Assembly: GCA_964440795.1 (NCBI GenBank)
Contig: CAYTTQ010000002.1
Coordinates: forward strand, 21,106 to 85,105
Origin: an uncultured Desulfobacterales bacterium
GTDB taxonomy: Bacteria > Desulfobacterota > Desulfobacteria > Desulfobacterales > C00003060
DNA length: 64,000 nt
Direction: 5' to 3'
Part shown: positions 4,874 through 41,886 of the stretch, one piece after another
Layout of the letters: every line of letters starts with the position of its first letter
How positions within the stretch are numbered: position 1 is the first letter of the stretch
Made by a program: the position numbers and the translations under genes
The notes under the pieces: generated by a model
Told to the model about the DNA's origin: nothing
The model's database searches: none
The model's input: only the letters and a program-made list of their open reading frames with translations

Positions 4874-7800
4874 TCAGGCACTCATTTCAGATACGATTCG
4901 TTCCGATATCTTCTCGGCCGACATACCGAACAGGTCTTCGATGCCGATACGATCCAGGTATGGGTCCTGCCAGGCGAGACTCATTTCTTCCACCAGGTTT
5001 CGGATGTGGTGGTATTTGCCGCCCAGAGCGTCCACCTTTTTGTGGAGCGCCAATCCCCGTTGAAATCCGATTTCAAACAAGACCAAATGATCGATTTTCG
5101 AACCGCTCGAGATGACCGGCACCACCAGGATACTCCTGTTATCACGCTTACCCCGCCCGATAAAGACATTTCCATTCTTGACGATGATGCGCTTGGTACC
5201 GTGTAGCCGCTTGTCCTGCTCAATCCGGGAACTCAGTTCGGCCGAGGTCCCTTCTTTGTTGATCAGATGGATGGTCGAATCCTCCGTCGGCTCGCCGAGA
5301 ATGTTCAGATTCTCGATCCCATAGGTGGTCACCCCTTTGATTTGGGCCACCACTTCCTGCAGGCGCTTGAGAACCAAGATGTTGCTGGTGGTCAGCTGGT
5401 CCTTGCTGAAACCGCGCCCTTCCAGGGCTTCGAAAAGAAACCCTTCCACCTTGTCCGGGATCCGACTCGTGCCGACGGTAACCGTCTTGGCCTGGTGCTT
5501 GATGGCATCCACGGGGCGGGCCATTTCATTGATGACCTTGCCGATACAAGAAAAAAAGCGCTTCATCAAATTGGGCGCCGTTCCTTCTTGGCCGAAATCA
5601 AACTCAAAATCCTTGATGGGAAGCCGGCCGGAAAGATACTTGAGCAGCAGCGTGAGATCCGATCCCGCCTGTAACCCCATGGCCGTGGCATACCGATTCC
5701 GGCCGATCCGTTTTTTGAAGTTACTGTAAAAACCGGTCGCCCGTTCCCGAAAGCCCTTGTCCAGCACGATCTCATAGATGTCGAGACCGCGATCCGTGCA
5801 CGCAGCGATATAGCGATTCATCTCTTCCCGGAAGGTATACAGATATTGGGACTCTTCATTTATCGCCAGGGCCGCATAATATCCCCACAAGTGCCCGGCC
5901 AAGGTATTCAAGATGGGCGCGAATCGCTCTTCGATGGGAGGCACGTAAATCACCGAGTCGGCATAGGGTTCAAAGCGGTGTTCCCCTTCGGTGGTAATGA
6001 CGATGGGCACGGCTTCGTGGGCCTTGAATATGGCCGTGTCCTTGATGATATCGGTAACCACGCTCTCCCGGTTCCCCGCCGCACACACCAGGATCAAGGG
6101 CTCGGAAGACAAATCGATATGCTTTTTGTCTTCCACCACATCGGAAGAGATACTCTTATAACACAGCTCGCTGAGTTTGATCCGAATCTCGTCGGCGGAG
6201 ACCTTGTTGGGGCCGCTTCCCACGATGGCCCAATACCGTCGGGTGACGGCGAACCGCTCGGCGGACCGCCGGATCCGGGCCTTGTTCTGCAAGACCTTTC
6301 GCATGGCGGAAGAGAGCTTCCAGAGTTTTTGCATCTCTCTCAACACAAAATCGTCGGATCGGGCGCCCGTCAACTGGGCCATCCTAAGCCCCAGGATCCC
6401 GCCGGCGACGATTTGAGAATAATAGGCCTTGGTGGAAGCCACGGACATTTCGATATCCCGGCCCGTACTGGTGTATAACACCCCGTCCACCTTAAAGGTT
6501 ACGTCCGAATCCCGACGGTTCACAATCGCCAACGTGTAGGCGCCCAACCGCTTGGCCATGTCGACGGCCCGGTTGGTATCCGTGGTGGTGCCCGATTGGC
6601 TGATCGCCACCACCAGCGTGCCCGCCAGGCTGCCGTCCATCATAAAGCCGCTGAACTCGGAGGCCTTGAAAGCGGCCACCCGGATGGCGGTTTGCTGCAA
6701 ATAGTCCCGCAACAAGGTGGTACAGCCCGATGCCGCCACGCCGGCGGTGCCCTGACCGATAAAGAATATCCGGCTTATCCGTTGGTTTTTGAGGGCTTCG
6801 GCCAGCCGCTCCGGTATGACCGAGCCGTCCAAAAGGATCCGGGGGCGGGGTTCGCCGTTTTCCTCCTCGACGGAAAGCCGCCCTTGAATGGTTTGTTCCA
6901 CCGAACGGGGCGATTCGGAGATTTCCTTTAAGAAGTAGTGCGGGTAATCCTGGCGGTCGATGTCCCGAGACCGGATTTCCGCGTCTTTGATATCGGTTTC
7001 AGACAGGATAATGGGCGTGCCGTCATAATACATGGCCGTGATCTCTCCCACACCGCCGGTACCGTGGGCATCCAGGATCATTATTTGGCCTTGCGTTTGC
7101 CCGGACAGCCCGTTTACCGTCTTCTCACCGTCCAGCTTTACGAACCGGCCGGCCTGCTCGACAAAGCCGTAAATCTCCGACGCCGGCACATAACAAGATC
7201 CGGCCAGGCCGGTGAATACGGCCTGGCCGCTACCCCGCTGGGCCAGAAACACCTTTCCCGGGGCCAGGTCGGTATGCATGGCGATGGCGTGGGACCCGTC
7301 GAACTCGCTGACCGTTTGGCGAAAGGCCTCGGCCACGGACTCCGTGTTTTCCAGCTTTTGTTCGATGCGAAGGGGGATGATCTTGGTATCCGTGCTGATC
7401 GAAGGATCGATGGTTTTCCCGGTTTCCGTTTCATACGCCCTGCTCAGGTAGTGATAATTATCGATATCCCCGTTCAGGCAGGCGTGAATGATGCCCTGCT
7501 GCCGGTCGTCATTTTCCACCGGATGGCAATTGGGTTCGCTGATTTCTCCCACCGACGCCCAGCGGGTATGGGCCAGCACACTGTGGTGAACCGGGGGAAG
7601 GGTCAACAACCGGGAAAAGATGGCGTCCTTGCGCACCTGCTCGCGCAAAAAGGCCACATTGTCACCCAGGCGCCCGATCTCTGCCGCCACCTTAAAGACA
7701 AACGCTACGGAAATGCCGGCCGCACAGTCCTCGTTTATCCGAATACTGCCGTTGACCAGCACGGGATCATTGGCGCGGCGCTCCAGTTCCTGCAGCCGGT

Positions 7801-26390: not shown

Positions 26391-27779
26391 GTGAATTCCC
26401 CTGTTGACACCATAGCGGCGATTGCCACACCTCTCGGGGCCGGCGGTATCGGGGTCGTCAAGATGTCCGGGCCGGCATGTGAGTCCGCCTTGCGCGGATT
26501 GCTGCCCGCCGAAAGGCAACCCGATACGTTGACGTCCCACCTGCTCTATCACGGATTCATCATCGACCCTCACTCCGGTGCCGCTGTGGATGAAGTGCTT
26601 TACACACTCATGCGCGCACCCCGGTCCTACACCCGGGAAGACGTGGTGGAAATTCAAGCCCACGGCAGTCGATGCGGTTTAAACAAAATCTTGGAACTGC
26701 TGTGTGCCCGCAGCGACGTTCGGCTGGCCGACCCCGGGGAATTCACCAAACGGGCATTCTTGAAAGGCCGGATTGACCTGACCCAGGCGGAAGCGGTAGC
26801 GGAACTGATCTCCGCCCAGACCCCGCCGGGTCACGAGCTGGCCGCCCGGCAGTTGCAGGGAGAGCTGCGCCGTCAAGTGGAAGCCGTGTACCGTCAGGCG
26901 GAACAACTTCTGGTAAATATCGAGGTGGGGGTCGATTTCCCGGAGGACGTGGAAGATATCTACCGGCCGGAAATTGTGTCGGACCAGTTGGCATCGGCGG
27001 TAATTGAGCCGATGGAACGCTTGCTGGCGTCCTACGAGGAAGGCCACGTCTATCGGGACGGCGTGTCCACCGTTATCATCGGCAAGCCCAATGTGGGCAA
27101 ATCGAGCCTGATGAACTGTCTCCTGCAAAAGGAACGGGCCATCGTGACCACGTTTCCCGGAACGACGCGGGACTTTATCGAAGAAACGGTGAATATGGGC
27201 GGGGTACCCTTTCGATTGATCGACACCGCGGGGCTGCGGCGAACCGACGATGATTTGGAGGCGGTTGGAATCCGGCTTACCCGGCGTGAGTTGCAGGCGG
27301 CGGACGTGGTATTATTCGTGATCGACGGCAGCCAACCCCTAACGGCGGAAGACCGAGACATCTACGCCGACATTCGGGATCGAGAGGTTATCCTGGTCAT
27401 CAACAAGAGTGATCTTCCCGGCCACACTCCGACCGAAGAACTCACGAATCGGTTCCCCGCCCGGGCAGCGGTATCCACGTCCGCTTTATTGTGCAAAGGC
27501 ATGGAACGCTTGAAACATGATGTCTGGTCCGTAGTGACAGGTCGGTCCGGACCGGCGGAATTACCCGGCGTGGTGCCGAATCTCAGGCAAAAACAGCTGC
27601 TTCAGCGGGCCCTCACGGCCGCCGGACTCTCTCAGGACGCCCTGAAAGCCGACGCCGCCCCCGAACTGGTGGCCGTCGACCTTCGCGAGACCCTCAACTG
27701 TCTCGGGGAAGTCATCGGAACGCAGACCTCGGACCGGATCTTGGATCGGATTTTTGAACAATTCTGCATAGGAAAGTAG
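26391..27779 (+). CDS. mnmE: tRNA modification GTPase MnmE
   Basis: DTIAAIATP N-terminus, GKPNVGKSSL G1 motif, C-terminal ...FCIGK. Confidence 0.95.
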   Translation: MNSPVDTIAAIATPLGAGGIGVVKMSGPACESALRGLLPAERQPDTLTSHLLYHGFIIDPHSGAAVDEVLYTLMRAPRSYTREDVVEIQAHGSRCGLNKILELLCARSDVRLADPGEFTKRAFLKGRIDLTQAEAVAELISAQTPPGHELAARQLQGELRRQVEAVYRQAEQLLVNIEVGVDFPEDVEDIYRPEIVSDQLASAVIEPMERLLASYEEGHVYRDGVSTVIIGKPNVGKSSLMNCLLQKERAIVTTFPGTTRDFIEETVNMGGVPFRLIDTAGLRRTDDDLEAVGIRLTRRELQAADVVLFVIDGSQPLTAEDRDIYADIRDREVILVINKSDLPGHTPTEELTNRFPARAAVSTSALLCKGMERLKHDVWSVVTGRSGPAELPGVVPNLRQKQLLQRALTAAGLSQDALKADAAPELVAVDLRETLNCLGEVIGTQTSDRILDRIFEQFCIGK

Positions 27780-27797
27780 GTTGTGTTGAAAACCACC

Positions 27798-27965
27798 ATG
27801 CAGTGTAAACATTGCCGGGGCACGCTCTACCTTCGGCCGGAGTGACGGTCCGTCACTTTTGTCTGCAAGGATTGCAACCAACGGCACGAATTGAAAGACC
27901 TGGTGAATGAGCTTGACGAAACCTCCCTGGAACGTATCGCCGGACTGCGATGTGATCGCATTTGA
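27798..27965 (+). CDS. Small dual-CXXC zinc-ribbon protein interrupted by an in-frame TGA (candidate selenoprotein, other recoding event, or nonsense pseudogene)
   Basis: MQCKHCRGTLYLRPE-[TGA 27843-27845]-RSVTFVCKDCNQRHELKDLVNELDETSLERIAGLRCDRI-stop (27963-27965). The two CXXC knuckles straddle the TGA, and 39 sense codons stay open after it. Each half is <60 aa, so it is not in the ORF track. Confidence 0.4.
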
Positions 27966-28117
27966 CGAAAGGAAAAGGATTTTCTCAAAAATGTAACCTT
28001 TGTTGGAACAAAAGCGCACTTTTTTTTCCGTTTTGCCGGCTGCCGTCCTTACCCCTTCTCGCCCTAGTGGGCACATAAGCCGCAGATATTAAAGCAAATA
28101 AGCGCCGACCAGGATCT

Positions 28118-28132
28118 TGGCACCCAGGTTGC
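28118..28132 (+). promoter_or_regulatory. Sigma-54 (RpoN) promoter
   Basis: TGGCAC-CCAGG-TTGC matches the -24/-12 consensus TGGCAC-N5-TTGC exactly. Lies 185 nt upstream of the 28318 ATG. Confidence 0.6.
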
Positions 28133-28317
28133 TATACAGAAAGGCGTGGGGGAGGAACATAGGCACACCGGCGCCCCGCAGGGACGAAACACCTGACGTG
28201 AGGCATGGGGCTTTTCACCGGTTTCCGTCTTCGGATAATAGGAACGGAAAATTAACGGCTGCCATCGGGGCCTTGAACGCAAGGCCTGAAGCACCGAGAA
28301 AAGGGGCTTAGGATATT

Positions 28318-28752
28318 ATGAACCAGGTAATCGAACTAACCGACGATACGGCAATCATCCACACCGCCCAACCGAAAGGGTTGGGGACACAGGTGGAACT
28401 CAAGGTCAAGTTACCAGATGGTGTCGTGGCCAACCATCTGGTCATCCCCGGTACCGTAACCCGCTGTGATCTTATTGACAATAACGGAGAGGGCCAATAT
28501 CTCCTGGAGCTGAAGATAAAGGAAATGTCGTCGGTTGATCAGAAGATCTTGGCCGCGTACCGGGAGTTCTTGGAGCGTAAGAAGGTTCTGGCGAAGGTTA
28601 AGGTCGATTTGGGCGAAATTCAGGCGGCGTTCGAGACTTTCGGTAGCAATCTCAGAGAGTTGAGAAAAAACGCCGAGGATTTGAGAGAAAACTTGCGGGG
28701 GACGTTGGAGTTGATGAAAATCAAGGCCGAGGGAAGAACCACCGTCCATTAG
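28318..28752 (+). CDS. Hypothetical protein (N-terminal beta-rich domain, C-terminal coiled coil)
   Basis: 144-aa ORF with an ATG start and GGGGCTTAGG upstream. The C-terminal half is heptad-like (LRELRKNAEDLRENLRGTLELMK). No family recognised with confidence. Confidence 0.55.
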   Translation: MNQVIELTDDTAIIHTAQPKGLGTQVELKVKLPDGVVANHLVIPGTVTRCDLIDNNGEGQYLLELKIKEMSSVDQKILAAYREFLERKKVLAKVKVDLGEIQAAFETFGSNLRELRKNAEDLRENLRGTLELMKIKAEGRTTVH

Positions 28753-31324: not shown

Positions 31325-31352
31325 GGAAAATGTTCCACGTGGAACATTTTCC
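31325..31352. other. parS site 1 (core TGTTCCACGTGGAACA at 31331-31346) inside a 28-bp perfect palindrome
   Basis: GGAAAATGTTCCACGTGGAACATTTTCC is its own reverse complement. The core is 15/16 identical to the classical parS TGTTCCACGTGAAACA. Confidence 0.75.
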
Positions 31353-31366
31353 GTGTCGTCCATTTT

Positions 31367-31400
31367 GTTTCGAAATGTTCCACGTGGAACATTTCGAAAC
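31367..31400. other. parS site 2 (core TGTTCCACGTGGAACA at 31376-31391) inside a 34-bp perfect palindrome
   Basis: GTTTCGAAATGTTCCACGTGGAACATTTCGAAAC is its own reverse complement. Centre-to-centre distance to site 1 is 45 bp. Confidence 0.75.
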
Positions 31401-31420: not shown

Positions 31421-32116
31421 TCAATCCTTCCGGTACACGATTAGGCACCGCTCTATCCCCGAAACGGGGAGCCGATAGCGATGACGTATGACCTCGAAAC
31501 CCGCCTTTCCCGCCTGTTCGTCCCCCCGCGTTTCTTCTCCACTCCCCATCAGTACTAACCATCCCCCGGCCTTCACCAGGGGAGCACACCATGGCACCAC
31601 CTGTTCCGGGTTTCCCACCGCCTTGACAACGACACCGTTCCACTCTCGCCACGCTTCTTCCCGTCCCTCCACGAGGGCCTCCGCCCGGCCCTGCCTTACC
31701 ACCATGTCCTTTAACCCCAGGGCCCTCACCAGATGTTTCAAGAACGTGATCTTTTTCCGAACCCCGTCGATGAGACAAACCTTCAGGTCCGGCCGCAACA
31801 CCTTTAAGGGCACCCCAGGAAAGCCACCGCCGGAACCGACGTCCAATATCCGCCATCCCTGAGGCAGCATACCGGCAAGGGGTATGGTGTCCAGGAATTG
31901 TCTCTCCGCCAACACACCCGACCGCTTAACCGCCGTCAGGTTCACCGCCGAATTCCAAGCCCACAACTCCCGGCCGTGCCGGACGAATTGCTCCACCTGA
32001 GCGGCCGTCAACGGATGCCCCATCGTTCGCGCACCCTCTTCCACTATCCGCGAAAATTCATCCCACACGCGTTTCTCTTTCAATCCCGCCTCAACTCCAC
32101 CAGCAGCGCCCCCCAT
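31421..32116 (-). CDS. rsmG: 16S rRNA (guanine527-N7)-methyltransferase RsmG (GidB)
   Basis: ...NLTAVKRSGVLAERQFLDTI...ILDVGSGGGFPGVPLKV... SAM-binding motif. The start is uncertain: ATG 32116, or TTG 32083 overlapping the Smr stop. The track ORF extends to 32254. Confidence 0.8.
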   Translation of the reverse strand: MGGAAGGVEAGLKEKRVWDEFSRIVEEGARTMGHPLTAAQVEQFVRHGRELWAWNSAVNLTAVKRSGVLAERQFLDTIPLAGMLPQGWRILDVGSGGGFPGVPLKVLRPDLKVCLIDGVRKKITFLKHLVRALGLKDMVVRQGRAEALVEGREEAWREWNGVVVKAVGNPEQVVPWCAPLVKAGGWLVLMGSGEETRGDEQAGKAGFEVIRHRYRLPVSGIERCLIVYRKD

Positions 32117-32349
32117 CCGCCCGCCTCGGGCGGTGCCGGTGACACCGACACAACCAACGGATTCTTTTCTAACACCGCTTCCACCCGCCGTCTCAATATG
32201 CCTCGCCCCTTTCCGTGGATCACTCGCACCGAAAAGATTTCCTCTTCCACACACGCAGCCAGATAGGCCTCCAGAAGATCCGGGATCTCCTTGGGCAAAA
32301 ATGTGTGCAGATCCAACACATCCTCAATGGGAACTCTAACGACCATCAC
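32080..32349 (-). CDS. Smr domain protein
   Basis: 89 aa: LDLHTF...VRVIHGKGRGILRRRVEAVLEKNPLV. The start overlaps the upstream regulator's stop (ATGA). Confidence 0.8.
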   Translation of the reverse strand: MMVVRVPIEDVLDLHTFLPKEIPDLLEAYLAACVEEEIFSVRVIHGKGRGILRRRVEAVLEKNPLVVSVSPAPPEAGGWGALLVELRRD

Positions 32350-33722
32350 ATCCCTCCCGCTTTGCCTATCCCGTATTTCTTCATCTTTTTGTACAAGGTA
32401 TCCCTCGAAATCCCCAACAGGCGCGACGCCCGGGCCTTATTCCCCCCCGTCTCTCTCAAGGCCTCCCGAATATGGCCCGCCTCCACCTCCGCAATGGGAC
32501 GAACCCCCGGGGCCGCCCGCGTCGTCGGTGCTTGCCCCAACTCTTCCGTCACCGCCTTTAAATCCTTCGACGTAATCCTTTCCCCCTTCACCAGCGCCGA
32601 CACCGCTAAGAGTAGATTCCTCAACTCCCGAATGTTCCCCGGCCAGTCGTATGCCTCCAGGATCTCCCGCGCACTCTTCGAAATCCCTGGAACCCGCCAC
32701 CCATATGTCTGGGAAAATTGCTCCAGGAAGTGATCCATAAGCACCGGAATCTCTTCCTTTCTTTCCCGCAACGGGGGCAACTCCAACCGGATACAGGCCA
32801 AGCGCTCATAGAAGTCCTTTCGGAATACCGATCGCCGGATCATACCTTTTAAGTCTTGGTTGGTCGCCGCAATCAGCCGAACATCAACCCGGCGCGTCTT
32901 CGTGTCCCCGAGCCGCGTAATTTCCTGGTCTTCGATGAACCTTAGCAACTTGGGCTGTGATTCCAAAGACATATCCCCCACCTCATCCAGAAAACAGGTA
33001 CCCCCTTCCGCCATTTCCAGTTTTCCCGCTTTGTCGACGGCATTGTTGAACGCCCCTTTCACGCACCCAAAGAGTTCACTTTCAAAAAGCCCTCCCGGAA
33101 TGGATGAACAATTGATGGCCACCATCCGACCCGTCCGGCCCGAATATGCATGTAACGTCCGTGCAACGTGTTCCTTTCCGGTACCCGCCTCCCCCAGTAT
33201 CAATATGGGCACGGCAATTCGAGCCACCGTTTCCACGTCCCGATACAATCCGGTCATCTTCTCGCTCACCACGACCACACCGTCTTCGCGCAATCGGGCC
33301 TTCAACCGGGATGACGCGTCATCTTCCACACCCGACGGAGCCAGGGTATCCACACCTTCCTCCCATCCCCCGTCAGTCCGTGAGCCCCCTTTTTGCCGGC
33401 GGTGGGAAACGTCTGCCACCGCACCCTCGTCTACAAAGGTAATCTCATAATCGACAATTTCAAACTTCGTTCCGTGTACCAGGAGACACGAATCGATCCG
33501 CCTCCCCTCGACCCACGTACCGTTTTTACTCCGGTCGCGCAGGACATAGCCCTCCCTTTCCTTGCAAATATCCGCATGCCGCCGCGAGACCAACAAGTCA
33601 TCCCGGTCACTCAACACGACATCATTGGTTTCCGCTCGACCCACGGTTATCCGATCGGTAAAGCGAAACACCCGGTAGTCCTTAACCTCCTTACCCACCA
33701 CCAGATAGGCCATCTCCGCCAC
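32346..33722 (-). CDS. Sigma-54-dependent transcriptional activator with N-terminal FHA domain
   Basis: FHA: ITVGRAETNDVVLSDRDDLLVSRRHADI...RDRSKNGTWVEGRRI. AAA+: GEAGTGKE, ESELFGCVKGAFNNA. C-terminal Fis-type HTH: ...ASRLLGISRDTLYKKMKKYGI. Confidence 0.9.
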   Translation of the reverse strand: MAEMAYLVVGKEVKDYRVFRFTDRITVGRAETNDVVLSDRDDLLVSRRHADICKEREGYVLRDRSKNGTWVEGRRIDSCLLVHGTKFEIVDYEITFVDEGAVADVSHRRQKGGSRTDGGWEEGVDTLAPSGVEDDASSRLKARLREDGVVVVSEKMTGLYRDVETVARIAVPILILGEAGTGKEHVARTLHAYSGRTGRMVAINCSSIPGGLFESELFGCVKGAFNNAVDKAGKLEMAEGGTCFLDEVGDMSLESQPKLLRFIEDQEITRLGDTKTRRVDVRLIAATNQDLKGMIRRSVFRKDFYERLACIRLELPPLRERKEEIPVLMDHFLEQFSQTYGWRVPGISKSAREILEAYDWPGNIRELRNLLLAVSALVKGERITSKDLKAVTEELGQAPTTRAAPGVRPIAEVEAGHIREALRETGGNKARASRLLGISRDTLYKKMKKYGIGKAGGM

Positions 33723-36863: not shown

Positions 36864-40371
<3,508 letters not shown>

Positions 40372-40500
40372 ATTAAGCTCCCTTTTATTTTATTATATTA
40401 GTAATAAAAACCATCATCATAAGGCCTATCAGTATTGTAAAAAAGGGCTATAATATACGCATATAATTAATTTATTCTATCAAATTCATGTTAAAAAAAA
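40372..40500. other. Strongly AT-rich intergenic block upstream of dnaN (promoter region, possible unwinding element)
   Basis: Hand count of 40381-40500 gives 25 G+C out of 120 (21%), against about 55% in the flanking genes. Confidence 0.6.
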
Positions 40501-40602
40501 GGTCCAAAGAAGACCCCGATTCGTTGAAGAGCGACTTGTGATCAAAAAAAGAGGCACTATCGACAATGATATAAACATGCCTGTGTAAAAAAAGTGCCAG
40601 GG

Positions 40603-41886
40603 TCACGATGAAAAATAGTCTTTTACCATCTTGATGGCACAAAGTTCACCGCACATGGTGCAGACGTCCTCAGCGCCGGGGCGACTGTTTTTCCTGTAGG
40701 TTTCTCCCTTGTCCGGATCGATTGAGAGGGCAATCTGTCGGTCCCAGTCGAGTCGTTTTCGTGCCGTGGCCATTTCCAAATCCCACCCGGCGGCCCCCGG
40801 GTGCCCTTTGGATAGGTCCGCTGCATGCGCGGCTATTCGAGAAGCGATGACGCCTTCTTTGACGTCTTCTATGCCTGGCAATTTCAGATGTTCCGCCGGG
40901 GTGACGTAGCAGAGAAAATCGGCCCCGGCTTTTCCGGCCAGAGCTCCGCCTATGGCACACGCAATATGGTCATATCCGGCGGCAATATCGGTGACGATGG
41001 GCCCTAGAACATAGAACGGCGCCCCGTGACATAACCGTTTTTGTAATATCACATTGGTTTCAATTTGGTCCAGCGGGACGTGCCCCGGACCTTCAATCAT
41101 CACTTGGACGTTGGCGTCCCAAGCCCGTTGGGTCAGTTCTCCCAAGGTAAGTAACTCCTGCACCTGTGCCCGATCCGTGGCGTCGGCGATGCATCCGGGC
41201 CGCAACCCGTCCCCGAGACTCAGTGTTATGTCGTATTGATGGGCAATGGAAAGGAGCCTGTCGAAATCGGTATAGAATGGATTTTCTTTGTCATGGTGTA
41301 ACATCCAGGAGGTCAAGAAAGCCCCGCCTCGACTGACGATATCCGTTACCCGACCTTGGCGTCGCAATCGTTCCAGTGCGTGGCGTGTGAGACCCGAATG
41401 AATGGTCATAAAGTCCACGCCGTCTTTGGCCTGTTCTTCGATAACGTCAAAGAGAATATCCGGGGTAATATGAACGATCCCGCCCGATTTTTCAGCGGTT
41501 TCTATGGCTGCCTGATAAATGGGAACCGTACCAAACGGGAGCGTCGAGGCCTCAAGCAGGACTTTACGGATATGGGCCACGTTTCCCCCCGTACTTAGAT
41601 CCATGACCGCGTCCGCCCCGGCGCTTACGGCGCAGTGGAGCTTTTTCAACTCTTCGTCGAGATCGACGTGGTCACGCGAGGTTCCAATATTGGCGTTTAC
41701 TTTTATGGTCGACGACTTTCCGATGCCCACGGGGTCTAAGTGTGCGTGATGTATATTGGCAGGGATGACCAGTGTTCCTTCGGCGACATGATGTTGAACC
41801 GTTTTGGGGTCCAGGTTTTCTTTTTCAGCCACTTTCTTCATGACTTCCGAAACGACTCCGTCCCGGGCCAATTCGATCTGCGTCAT
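40603..41886 (-). CDS. thiC: Phosphomethylpyrimidine synthase
   Basis: 427 aa: ...TVPIYQA..., HGAPFYVLGPIVTDIAAGYDHI, C-terminal CTMCGELCAIK cluster motif. Confidence 0.95.
   Translation of the reverse strand: MTQIELARDGVVSEVMKKVAEKENLDPKTVQHHVAEGTLVIPANIHHAHLDPVGIGKSSTIKVNANIGTSRDHVDLDEELKKLHCAVSAGADAVMDLSTGGNVAHIRKVLLEASTLPFGTVPIYQAAIETAEKSGGIVHITPDILFDVIEEQAKDGVDFMTIHSGLTRHALERLRRQGRVTDIVSRGGAFLTSWMLHHDKENPFYTDFDRLLSIAHQYDITLSLGDGLRPGCIADATDRAQVQELLTLGELTQRAWDANVQVMIEGPGHVPLDQIETNVILQKRLCHGAPFYVLGPIVTDIAAGYDHIACAIGGALAGKAGADFLCYVTPAEHLKLPGIEDVKEGVIASRIAAHAADLSKGHPGAAGWDLEMATARKRLDWDRQIALSIDPDKGETYRKNSRPGAEDVCTMCGELCAIKMVKDYFSS

What the first reader, a model, noticed from the sequence alone, without database searches (positions are those of the whole stretch)
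27798..27965. Dual-CXXC zinc-ribbon mini-protein split by an in-frame TGA: selenocysteine/recoding candidate or very recent pseudogene
**Reading frame.** Immediately after mnmE, ATG 27798 opens MQCKHCRGTLYLRPE, then TGA (27843-27845). The same frame continues for 39 sense codons: RSVTFVCKDCNQRHELKDLVNELDETSLERIAGLRCDRI-stop.

**Why read-through is plausible.** The two CXXC pairs (codons 3-6 and 23-26) only form a zinc-ribbon/rubredoxin-type knuckle pair if the TGA is read through. The TGA falls in the turn between the two predicted beta-hairpins.

**RNA features.** The TGA lies in the 5' arm of a perfect hairpin GTGACGG-T-CCGTCAC (27842-27856; apical GGUCC). A second hairpin TGCAA-GGA-TTGCA (27864-27876) begins 19 nt after the TGA. 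That spacing and its G-rich loop are broadly compatible with bacterial SECIS models.

**Caveats.** I recall a public family label for small dual-CXXC (seleno)proteins but cannot verify membership here. A single-base change from GGA or TGG is an equally simple explanation.
Basis: partly seen in the sequence, partly recalled or inferred. Interest (0 to 1): 0.6.

Follow-up and report, generated by a model that had tools for sequence, protein, structure and literature searches.

The report
Known small dual-CXXC selenoprotein gene (OS_HP3)
The "broken" 55-codon reading frame after mnmE is an intact gene of an already catalogued family of tiny zinc-ribbon-like selenoproteins, whose in-frame TGA almost certainly encodes selenocysteine, so the finding is correct but ordinary.

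Summary
ATG 27798 opens 15 sense codons, then TGA 27843-27845, then 39 sense codons, then a stop at 27963-27965.

Read through, the product passes the curated NCBIfam equivalog NF041197, "dual CXXC motif small (seleno)protein" (48.9 bits, cutoff 40, full model length). This family was published as selenoprotein OS_HP3 in 2007 and again as "hypothetical protein DW" in 2025.

The TGA is not an error or a recent lesion:
- It is identical in six independent assemblies.
- It sits at the same codon in four diverged orthologues (down to 57% identity, the same as the neighbouring MnmE).
- It sits at the same column in a distant DW-type homologue and in all five published family sequences I found.
- Across all ten sequences, the four Cys and the Sec column are invariant, with spacing CxxC-x9-U-x6-CxxC.

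A hairpin over the second CXXC codons has a GG-containing apical loop 22-23 nt after the UGA in every homologue. That fits the bacterial SECIS model, although it is weak in this window.

The pseudogene reading is rejected. Three things remain untested: Sec-decoding genes (none lie in this 64 kb), actual selenium incorporation, and the protein's function. Novelty: already known.

The parts
27798..27965 (+). Complete gene for a 55-residue OS_HP3-type dual-CXXC small selenoprotein. ATG 27798, Sec codon 16, stop TGA 27963-27965.
   Evidence: Translation. NF041197 at 48.9 bits against cutoff 40, covering model positions 1-53 of 53. Orthologues in L010, L012/L013 and L007/L011 keep the same frame and length. 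The ATG is conserved in L010 and L012, whereas the upstream GTG is not.
27843..27845 (+). In-frame TGA, read as selenocysteine (residue 16).
   Evidence: Identical in 6 assemblies. TGA lies at the same column in 4 orthologues and in DW-type L014. It is U in the published family sequences. The family HMM rewards Cys at this column by about 6-7 bits over G, W, S or X, and by 11.6 bits over a deletion.
27804..27815 (+). First CXXC knuckle (C3-K-H-C6).
   Evidence: Invariant Cys columns in the 10-sequence family alignment.
27864..27875 (+). Second CXXC knuckle (C23-K-D-C26). Its codons also form the core of the SECIS-like hairpin.
   Evidence: Invariant Cys columns. Hairpin core UGCAA-GGA-UUGCA.
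27859..27881 (+). Candidate bacterial SECIS hairpin. The core is 27864-27876, and apical loop GGA begins 23 nt after the UGA. The lower stem is interrupted by a 2x2 internal loop in this window.
   Evidence: The alignment consensus fold keeps 8 pairs and includes one compensatory pair, U-A / C-G / A-U. The loop starts 22-23 nt after the UGA and contains GG in all 5 sequences. Energies are -4.1 kcal/mol here and -5.6 to -10.5 in homologues. Only 4.4% of TGA triplets in the window have a hairpin of 5 bp or more at that exact spacing.
27841..27857 (+). Hairpin that contains the UGA in its 5' arm (AGUGACG-GUC-CGUCACU). Its role is uncertain.
   Evidence: -7.5 kcal/mol. Kept in L010 and L012, weakened in L007 (-2.7), absent in DW-type L014. 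It overlaps the conserved residues U-R-S-V-T, so peptide and RNA constraints cannot be separated.
27951..27953 (+). Codon for Cys52 in the C-terminal RCDRI tail. It is the sixth conserved Cys/Sec position.
   Evidence: Cys in 9 of 10 family sequences.
26391..27779 (+). mnmE, the gene immediately upstream. Its stop lies 18 nt before the ATG and in the same frame. It is the probable source of the transcript.
   Evidence: ORF list. Pfam TrmE_N/MnmE_helical on the identical Logan gene. No promoter-like or credible terminator-like site lies between the two genes. The same tight arrangement occurs in L010 and L012.

Best explanation
**What it is.** 27798-27965 is a functional gene for a 55-residue selenoprotein of the OS_HP3 / NF041197 family.

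**How it is expressed (inferred).**
- It is probably transcribed with mnmE.
- Translation starts at ATG 27798.
- At UGA 27843-27845, the hairpin over the second CXXC codons acts as a bacterial SECIS. Its apical GGA loop lies 23 nt downstream of the UGA.
- SelB carrying Sec-tRNA(Sec) then inserts selenocysteine instead of terminating, and translation runs on to the stop at 27963-27965.

**What the product looks like (inferred).**
- It is a zinc-ribbon-like module: two CXXC knuckles that presumably hold one metal ion.
- Sec sits exposed on the turn between them.
- An acidic C-terminal helix follows, ending in a conserved Cys (RCDRI).

**What is shown and what is not.**
- Shown: family membership, the conserved TGA column, coding-type conservation on both sides of the TGA, and a positionally conserved hairpin.
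- Inferred: SelB/SECIS decoding, metal binding, and a Sec/Cys52 redox or chalcogen/metal-handling chemistry.
- The cellular function of the family is unknown.
For: - **Family score.** NF041197 scores 48.9 bits (cutoff 40) over the full model. The C-terminal half alone scores 31.2, so the 15 codons before the TGA plus the Sec column add about 18 bits.
- **Sec column in the HMM.** Cys at the TGA column scores 48.9. G scores 42.8, W 42.6, S 42.3, X 41.2 and a deletion 37.3.
- **Base calls.** The TGA is identical in 6 assemblies.
- **Conserved TGA in homologues.**
  - L010, a Desulfobacterales MAG, 89% identity.
  - L012/L013, 87%.
  - L007 = L011, another Desulfobacterales MAG, 57%.
  - DW-type L014, where the gene caller had read the TGA as W.
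  - Sources.
- **Same divergence as MnmE.** MnmE of the window and of L007 are also 57% identical, so the small gene is as constrained as its housekeeping neighbour.
- **Translation through the TGA.** There is no in-frame ATG, GTG or TTG between the TGA and the second CXXC. Yet in RSVTFVCKDC, 4 of the 6 codons that differ from L007 are synonymous.
- **Published sequences.** The OS_HP3 and DW sequences carry U at the same column. The ten-sequence alignment has invariant C3, C6, U16, C23 and C26, near-invariant C52, and spacing CxxC-x9-U-x6-CxxC.
- **Literature.** The family is listed as a selenoprotein in PMC1976440, PMC12013277 and PMC13188914.
- **SECIS geometry.** It matches the published bacterial model in all five sequences.
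- **Genetic code.** TGA is the commonest ordinary stop among 29 verified genes of the window (12 of 29). The recoding is therefore gene-specific.
- **Fold.** The homologue model has three strands plus a helix, with the Sec position in the first turn. Its nearest PDB matches are zinc ribbons.
Against: - **No Sec machinery seen.** No selA, selB, selD or tRNA-Sec was found in the 64-kb window. The organism's capacity to decode Sec rests on its Desulfobacterales affinity and on the literature.
- **Weak SECIS in this window.**
  - The simple hairpin scores -2.1 kcal/mol and the extended form -4.1.
  - Both are above the -7.5 limit of the published model.
  - AAC replaces the GGY of the relatives and breaks one pair.
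  - Hairpins of this quality follow about a third of random TGA triplets.
- **Confounded constraints.** The hairpin lies on Cys codons, so RNA and peptide constraints cannot be separated. The first CXXC also folds into a hairpin.
- **No Cys-form homologue seen directly.** Their existence rests on the deep-Sep paper and on the family name.
- **Limited structural evidence.** Fold matches are not statistically significant (best E = 0.2). The model is of a homologue with W at the Sec position, not of this protein.
Confidence: 0.87

Rival explanations
1. Very recent pseudogene: a single-base change (for example from TGG, GGA or TGC) created a premature stop in a former zinc-ribbon gene.
For: A lone in-frame TGA with no Sec machinery in view. 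The SECIS-like hairpin in this window is weak.
Against: - The same TGA lies at the same codon in four orthologues down to 57% identity and in a distant subfamily member.
- All published family members carry U at that column.
- Both halves stay in frame, free of other stops, and show synonymous changes.
- The sequence is identical in six assemblies.
Confidence: 0.02
2. The TGA is read through, but not as selenocysteine. It could be near-cognate suppression (Trp, Cys or Arg) or a programmed leaky stop. That would give a mixture of a 15-residue peptide and a 55-residue protein.
For: Sec-decoding genes were not seen. The local SECIS energy is below the published threshold. Hairpin 1 encloses the UGA and could modulate termination.
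Against: - The family is curated and published as a selenoprotein.
- The HMM column is Cys-like, the usual Sec counterpart.
- The closest genomes are Desulfobacterales, a lineage among the richest in selenoproteins.
- The hairpin has bacterial SECIS geometry and is conserved at 22-23 nt after the UGA.
Confidence: 0.07
3. The TGA is a true stop. Only the 15-residue peptide is made, and the downstream conservation reflects an RNA element or an independently translated ORF.
For: Gene callers annotated only the downstream fragments: P0002 (37 aa) and P0003 (32 aa). Hairpin 1 followed by UUUU looks superficially like a terminator.
Against: - There is no start codon between the TGA and the conserved RSVTFVC.DC segment, which evolves with synonymous changes.
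- The start codons of the called fragments are not conserved between lineages.
- The U-tract is absent in L007.
- No Rfam family matches, even at E-values up to 5.
- The N-terminal CXXC is invariant.
Confidence: 0.03

Closest known systems
OS_HP3 / NCBIfam NF041197 'dual CXXC motif small (seleno)protein' (Zhang & Gladyshev 2007, PMC1976440; listed in PMC13188914)
   Same: - Passes the curated equivalog cutoff over the full model length.
- Same size.
- Same CxxC-x9-U-x6-CxxC spacing.
- Same acidic helix and same RCDR[ILV] C-terminus as the published OS_HP3 sequences.
- Same bacterial order as Desulfosarcina.
   Different: - 33-36% identity to the two published OS_HP3 sequences.
- The residues just before Sec are RPE-U here, rather than KRT-U.
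- It has a shorter N-terminus.
- Here it lies directly after mnmE. The genomic context of the published members was not available for comparison.
'Hypothetical protein DW' subgroup of the same family (deep-Sep, Xiao & Zhang 2025, PMC12013277)
   Same: It matches the same HMM (43.8-45.3 bits). It has the same five invariant Cys/Sec columns and spacing. In L014, the SECIS-like hairpin sits on the second CXXC at the same distance from the UGA.
   Different: - Only 14-20% identity to the window protein.
- A different C-terminal helix, without the RCDRI tail.
- No hairpin 1.
- A different neighbourhood in L014: ABC transporter and unknown genes.
Bacterial SECIS consensus model (bSECISearch; summarised in PMC13188914), with E. 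coli fdhF as the archetype
   Same: The stem-loop lies inside the coding region just downstream of the UGA. The apical loop is 3 nt and starts with GG. The upper stem is 5 bp, and 23 nt separate the UGA from the loop.
   Different: The local energy is -2.1 to -4.1 kcal/mol, which does not reach the model's -7.5 limit. The UGA lies in a separate small hairpin rather than in the lower stem of a single long helix. SelB binding is untested.
Small zinc-ribbon proteins and domains (RNA polymerase subunits RPC10/RPB9/RPB12, the eIF2-beta C-terminal domain, T. thermophilus ZifS)
   Same: It has two CXXC knuckles on a three-stranded sheet. These proteins are the top structural and sequence neighbours of the family.
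   Different: No match is significant: Foldseek E is 0.2 or worse, and no Pfam zinc-ribbon family reaches its threshold. None of these proteins has Sec in the inter-knuckle turn.

Membership tests
NF041197 dual CXXC motif small (seleno)protein (OS_HP3/DW) | Score at or above the curated whole-protein cutoff (40 bits) of the equivalog HMM | tested here: met
   48.9 bits with Cys at the TGA column, covering residues 3-55 against model positions 1-53 of 53. It still scores 41.2-42.8 bits with X, S, W or G at that column.
NF041197 dual CXXC motif small (seleno)protein (OS_HP3/DW) | Two CXXC motifs with the family's spacing around the Sec/Cys position | tested here: met
   CxxC-x9-U-x6-CxxC in the window and in all nine other sequences. 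The columns C3, C6, U16, C23 and C26 are invariant.
NF041197 dual CXXC motif small (seleno)protein (OS_HP3/DW) | In-frame TGA, or Cys, at the family's Sec column | tested here: met
   TGA lies at that column in the window, L010, L012, L007 and L014. The published sequences carry U there. Cys-form homologues were not seen directly; they are only reported in the literature.
NF041197 dual CXXC motif small (seleno)protein (OS_HP3/DW) | Small single-domain protein of about 55-60 residues, with the RCDR[ILV] C-terminus of the OS_HP3 subgroup | tested here: met
   55 residues ending in RCDRI. Published OS_HP3 sequences end in RCDRL and RCDRI.
Bacterial selenoprotein gene (SelB/SECIS-dependent UGA decoding) | SECIS stem-loop after the UGA: loop of 3-9 nt with G in its first two positions, stem of 4 bp or more, 16-37 nt spacing, and MFE of -7.5 kcal/mol or lower | tested here: inconclusive
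   The geometry is met: loop GGA, 5 bp, 23 nt. It is conserved in 5 sequences with one compensatory pair. The energy is not met locally in the window (-2.1 and -4.1). It is met in L010 (-7.8) and L007 (-10.5). The 60 nt from the UGA fold at -13.3.
Bacterial selenoprotein gene (SelB/SECIS-dependent UGA decoding) | selA, selB, selC (tRNA-Sec) and selD present in the genome | tested here: inconclusive
   None is in the 64-kb window. The only tRNA is tRNA-Ala, and the 30 largest ORFs are other genes. The rest of the genome is not available. The closest genomes are Desulfobacterales MAGs.
Bacterial selenoprotein gene (SelB/SECIS-dependent UGA decoding) | Selenium actually incorporated at the UGA position | not testable with these tools
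   This needs 75Se labelling or mass spectrometry.
Zinc-ribbon fold | Two knuckles on a three-stranded antiparallel sheet that bind one metal ion | tested here: inconclusive
   The AlphaFold model of homologue P0004 has pLDDT 75.4, strands 19-23, 30-33 and 39-41, and helix 42-55. The top PDB matches are zinc ribbons, but with E of 0.2 or worse. Pfam zinc-ribbon families score below threshold. Metal binding is untested.

The most novel reading that the evidence does not exclude
The gene may be more than a routine family member. The stable hairpin that buries the UGA (27841-27857), together with an unusually weak SECIS, could make Sec insertion here a selenium-sensing switch between a 15-residue peptide and the 55-residue protein. 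The conserved position next to mnmE could tie the product to selenium or sulfur chemistry at the tRNA wobble uridine. That position is tight coupling 18 nt after the mnmE stop in the window's lineage, and the same neighbourhood in L007. None of this is tested. Hairpin 1 and the mnmE linkage are both absent from the DW-type member L014.
Probability: 0.05. Interest if true: 0.6.

Novelty: already known. Interest (0 to 1): 0.2.

Why it matters
**Annotation.** Standard gene callers miss or truncate this gene. Public predictions hold only the 32-37-residue tails, or a version with the TGA misread as Trp.

**What this adds.** Recognising it adds one selenoprotein to this organism's inventory. It also adds four TGA-containing orthologues and a conserved gene neighbourhood to a family whose function is still unknown.

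**What it does not change.** It alters nothing in what is known about Sec decoding.

Tried and rejected
**Searches that led nowhere**
- The word-indexed protein search with the Cys form found nothing.
- Profile searches returned only the truncated ORFs P0002 and P0003 and the mis-decoded P0004.
It gave 3 hits, one of them a repetitive 2606-residue protein that I judged spurious.
- Genome and metagenome scans gave only 4 loci in all.
- tblastn against plasmids found no match.
- Rfam found nothing beyond the window's one tRNA at gathering scores, and nothing at E-values up to 5 across 27700-28400.
- The PDB sequence search found only generic zinc-finger noise.
- The supplements of the 2007 OS_HP3 paper are not held.

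**Analyses that failed**
- A scan of the window for other split-by-TGA genes, as indirect evidence of Sec use, was swamped by GC-rich spurious frames and gave nothing usable.

**Ideas rejected**
- Hairpin 1 plus UUUU as a transcription terminator or attenuator: the U-tract is not conserved in L007.
- The first CXXC as a hairpin-free internal control for the SECIS: in the window it also folds into a hairpin.
- A genome-wide TGA reassignment: 12 of 29 verified genes end in TGA.

Full report
**1. The observation**

The window sequence at 27798-27965 reads ATG, 14 further sense codons, TGA (27843-27845), 39 sense codons, and a stop. The product is MQCKHCRGTLYLRPE*RSVTFVCKDCNQRHELKDLVNELDETSLERIAGLRCDRI*.

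Both hairpins are at the stated coordinates.
- GTGACGG-T-CCGTCAC lies at 27842-27856. As RNA it is a 7-bp stem, 27841-27857, with loop GUC and an energy of -7.5 kcal/mol.
- TGCAA-GGA-TTGCA lies at 27864-27876.

The gene follows mnmE (26391-27779) by 18 nt. It lies in the origin-proximal cluster rnpA-yidC-jag-mnmE. A radical-SAM gene and an ORF I take to be rsmG lie further on, and gyrB and dnaN are also in the window.

The 211 bases around the ORF are identical in six separate assemblies of six sequencing runs. The TGA is therefore real.

**2. What it is**

With Cys in place of the stop, the protein matches NCBIfam NF041197, "dual CXXC motif small (seleno)protein". The score is 48.9 bits against a curated cutoff of 40, and the match spans the whole 53-position model.

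Several controls bear on this score.
- The C-terminal 39 residues alone give 31.2 bits, so the part upstream of the TGA contributes to the match.
- At the TGA column the model scores Cys 48.9, Gly 42.8, Trp 42.6, Ser 42.3 and X 41.2.
- Deleting the column gives 37.3.
- The column therefore behaves as a conserved Cys/Sec position.

The literature agrees. A 2026 review lists NF041197 twice.
[quoted passage not shown] It was predicted as a selenoprotein in the Olavius algarvensis delta-1 and delta-4 symbionts (PMC1976440).
- The other is "hypothetical protein DW" from Desulfosarcina (PMC12013277).

Sequences in the deep-Sep supplements show the same architecture. An example is OS_HP3: MMDEIRATCPVCRRPLVMKRTUTRVTLACRVCGRDFSLEQFSEELDDEFERQFANVRCDRL.

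**3. Homologues**

Public protein predictions contain only fragments of this family. There are two tails that begin after the TGA (P0002, P0003). There is also one DW-type protein in which the caller read TGA as Trp (P0004).

Reading the DNA shows the full genes.

| Locus | Source | Identity to window | TGA position |
|---|---|---|---|
| L010 | Desulfobacterales MAG | 89% | codon 16 |
| L012 / L013 | metagenome contigs | 87% | codon 16 |
| L007 = L011 | a second Desulfobacterales MAG | 57% | codon 16 |
| L014 | DW-type, metagenome contig | 14% | homologous column (codon 26) |

Three further points follow.
- MnmE of the window and of L007 is also 57% identical. The small gene is thus conserved as well as a housekeeping neighbour.
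- Between the TGA and the second CXXC there is no possible start codon. Even so, four of the six codons that differ between the window and L007 in RSVTFVCKDC are synonymous. This segment is constrained as protein and can only be reached by reading through the TGA.
- An alignment of ten family sequences has exactly five invariant columns: C3, C6, U16, C23 and C26. G27 and C52 are nearly invariant, and the spacing is CxxC-x9-U-x6-CxxC.

This rules out a recent pseudogene and a sequencing error.

**4. Decoding**

TGA is the commonest ordinary stop in the window, ending 12 of 29 verified genes. The recoding must therefore be local to this gene.

The published bacterial SECIS model asks for four things:
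- a 3-9 nt apical loop with G in its first two positions;
- a stem of at least 4 bp;
- 16-37 nt between the UGA and the loop;
- an MFE of -7.5 kcal/mol or lower.

The hairpin on the second CXXC meets the geometry in all five sequences. The loop begins 22-23 nt after the UGA and contains GG. The consensus fold keeps eight pairs, one of them with compensatory changes.

Only 4.4% of TGA triplets in the window have a hairpin of 5 bp or more at that exact spacing. Three lineages share it, though they are not independent of the CXXC coding constraint.

In this window the element is the weakest of the set.

| Sequence | Energy of extended hairpin (kcal/mol) |
|---|---|
| window | -4.1 |
| L014 | -5.6 |
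| L012 | -6.7 |
| L010 | -7.8 |
| L007 | -10.5 |

The weakness arises because AAC replaces GGY after the second Cys. Taken alone, such a hairpin is not unusual. The SECIS assignment is therefore reasonable but not proven.

Hairpin 1, which contains the UGA, is kept in the close orthologues. It is weakened in L007 and absent in L014. It coincides with the conserved peptide U-R-S-V-T, so I leave its role open.

No tRNA-Sec, selA, selB or selD lies in the window. This says little for 64 kb of a genome. The nearest genomes are Desulfobacterales, which belong to the group richest in selenoproteins.

**5. The protein**

An AlphaFold model of homologue P0004 has a mean pLDDT of 75.4. It shows three short strands followed by a helix, and the Sec position lies in the turn after the first strand.

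The best PDB neighbours are zinc ribbons, namely RNA polymerase small subunits, eIF2-beta and ZifS. Their E-values are not significant. Sequence searches of Pfam and the PDB give only sub-threshold zinc-ribbon and rubredoxin matches.

My inference, which is not shown, has three parts.
- The four Cys hold a metal ion.
- Sec is displayed on the loop.
- The conserved C-terminal Cys52 could serve as its partner.

No function is known for the family.

**6. Verdict**

The pseudogene alternative is rejected. The gene belongs to a family that is already published and has a curated annotation model, so the finding is correct but not new.

**In passing**

A perfectly conserved sigma-54-type -24/-12 element lies at 28118-28133. 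It precedes the 144-residue gene of unknown function, which accompanies the selenoprotein gene in three lineages.

Two perfect parS-like palindromes lie at 31330-31347 and 31375-31392.

Noticed in passing
window 28118-28133 (+); L007 about 5272-5288: TGGCACCCAGGTTGCT is a perfect sigma-54-type -24/-12 promoter element. It lies about 185 nt upstream of the 144-residue gene at 28318-28752. It is conserved in L010, L012 and L007 while the surrounding intergenic DNA diverges. A sigma-54-dependent activator gene lies at 32346-33722 (-). The downstream gene is therefore probably its own transcription unit.
   Followed up: partly
window 28318-28752 (+): This 144-residue protein has no Pfam match. It is 41% identical to its counterpart in L007. 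It lies directly downstream of the small selenoprotein gene in the window, in L007/L008, and on the JGI contig that carries P0002. The two genes form a conserved pair of unknown meaning.
   Followed up: partly
window 31330-31347 and 31375-31392: There are two exact copies of the palindrome ATGTTCCACGTGGAACAT, 45 nt apart, where none is expected by chance. They lie between the radical-SAM gene and the ORF at 31421-32254 (-), which I take to be rsmG. From my own knowledge, the sequence matches the parS consensus tGTTNCACGTGAAACa. They are probably ParB-binding sites near the replication origin.
   Followed up: partly
window 27777-27800: The small gene is in the same reading frame as mnmE. Its ATG is six codons after the mnmE TAG stop, and no Shine-Dalgarno-like sequence lies in between. 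This suggests translational coupling. In L007 the gene instead sits about 350 nt after mnmE, with an AGGAGG 13 nt before a GTG start.
   Followed up: no
L014 4001-4173; proteins P0002, P0003, P0004: Public gene calls for this family are systematically wrong. Two entries are tails that start after the TGA. One was translated with TGA read as Trp, so it does not translate to its own record under table 11.
   Followed up: yes
window 36864-41886 (-): gyrB (36864-39254) and dnaN (39256-40371) are followed upstream by thiC (40603-41886) rather than by dnaA. I did not look for dnaA elsewhere in the window.
   Followed up: no
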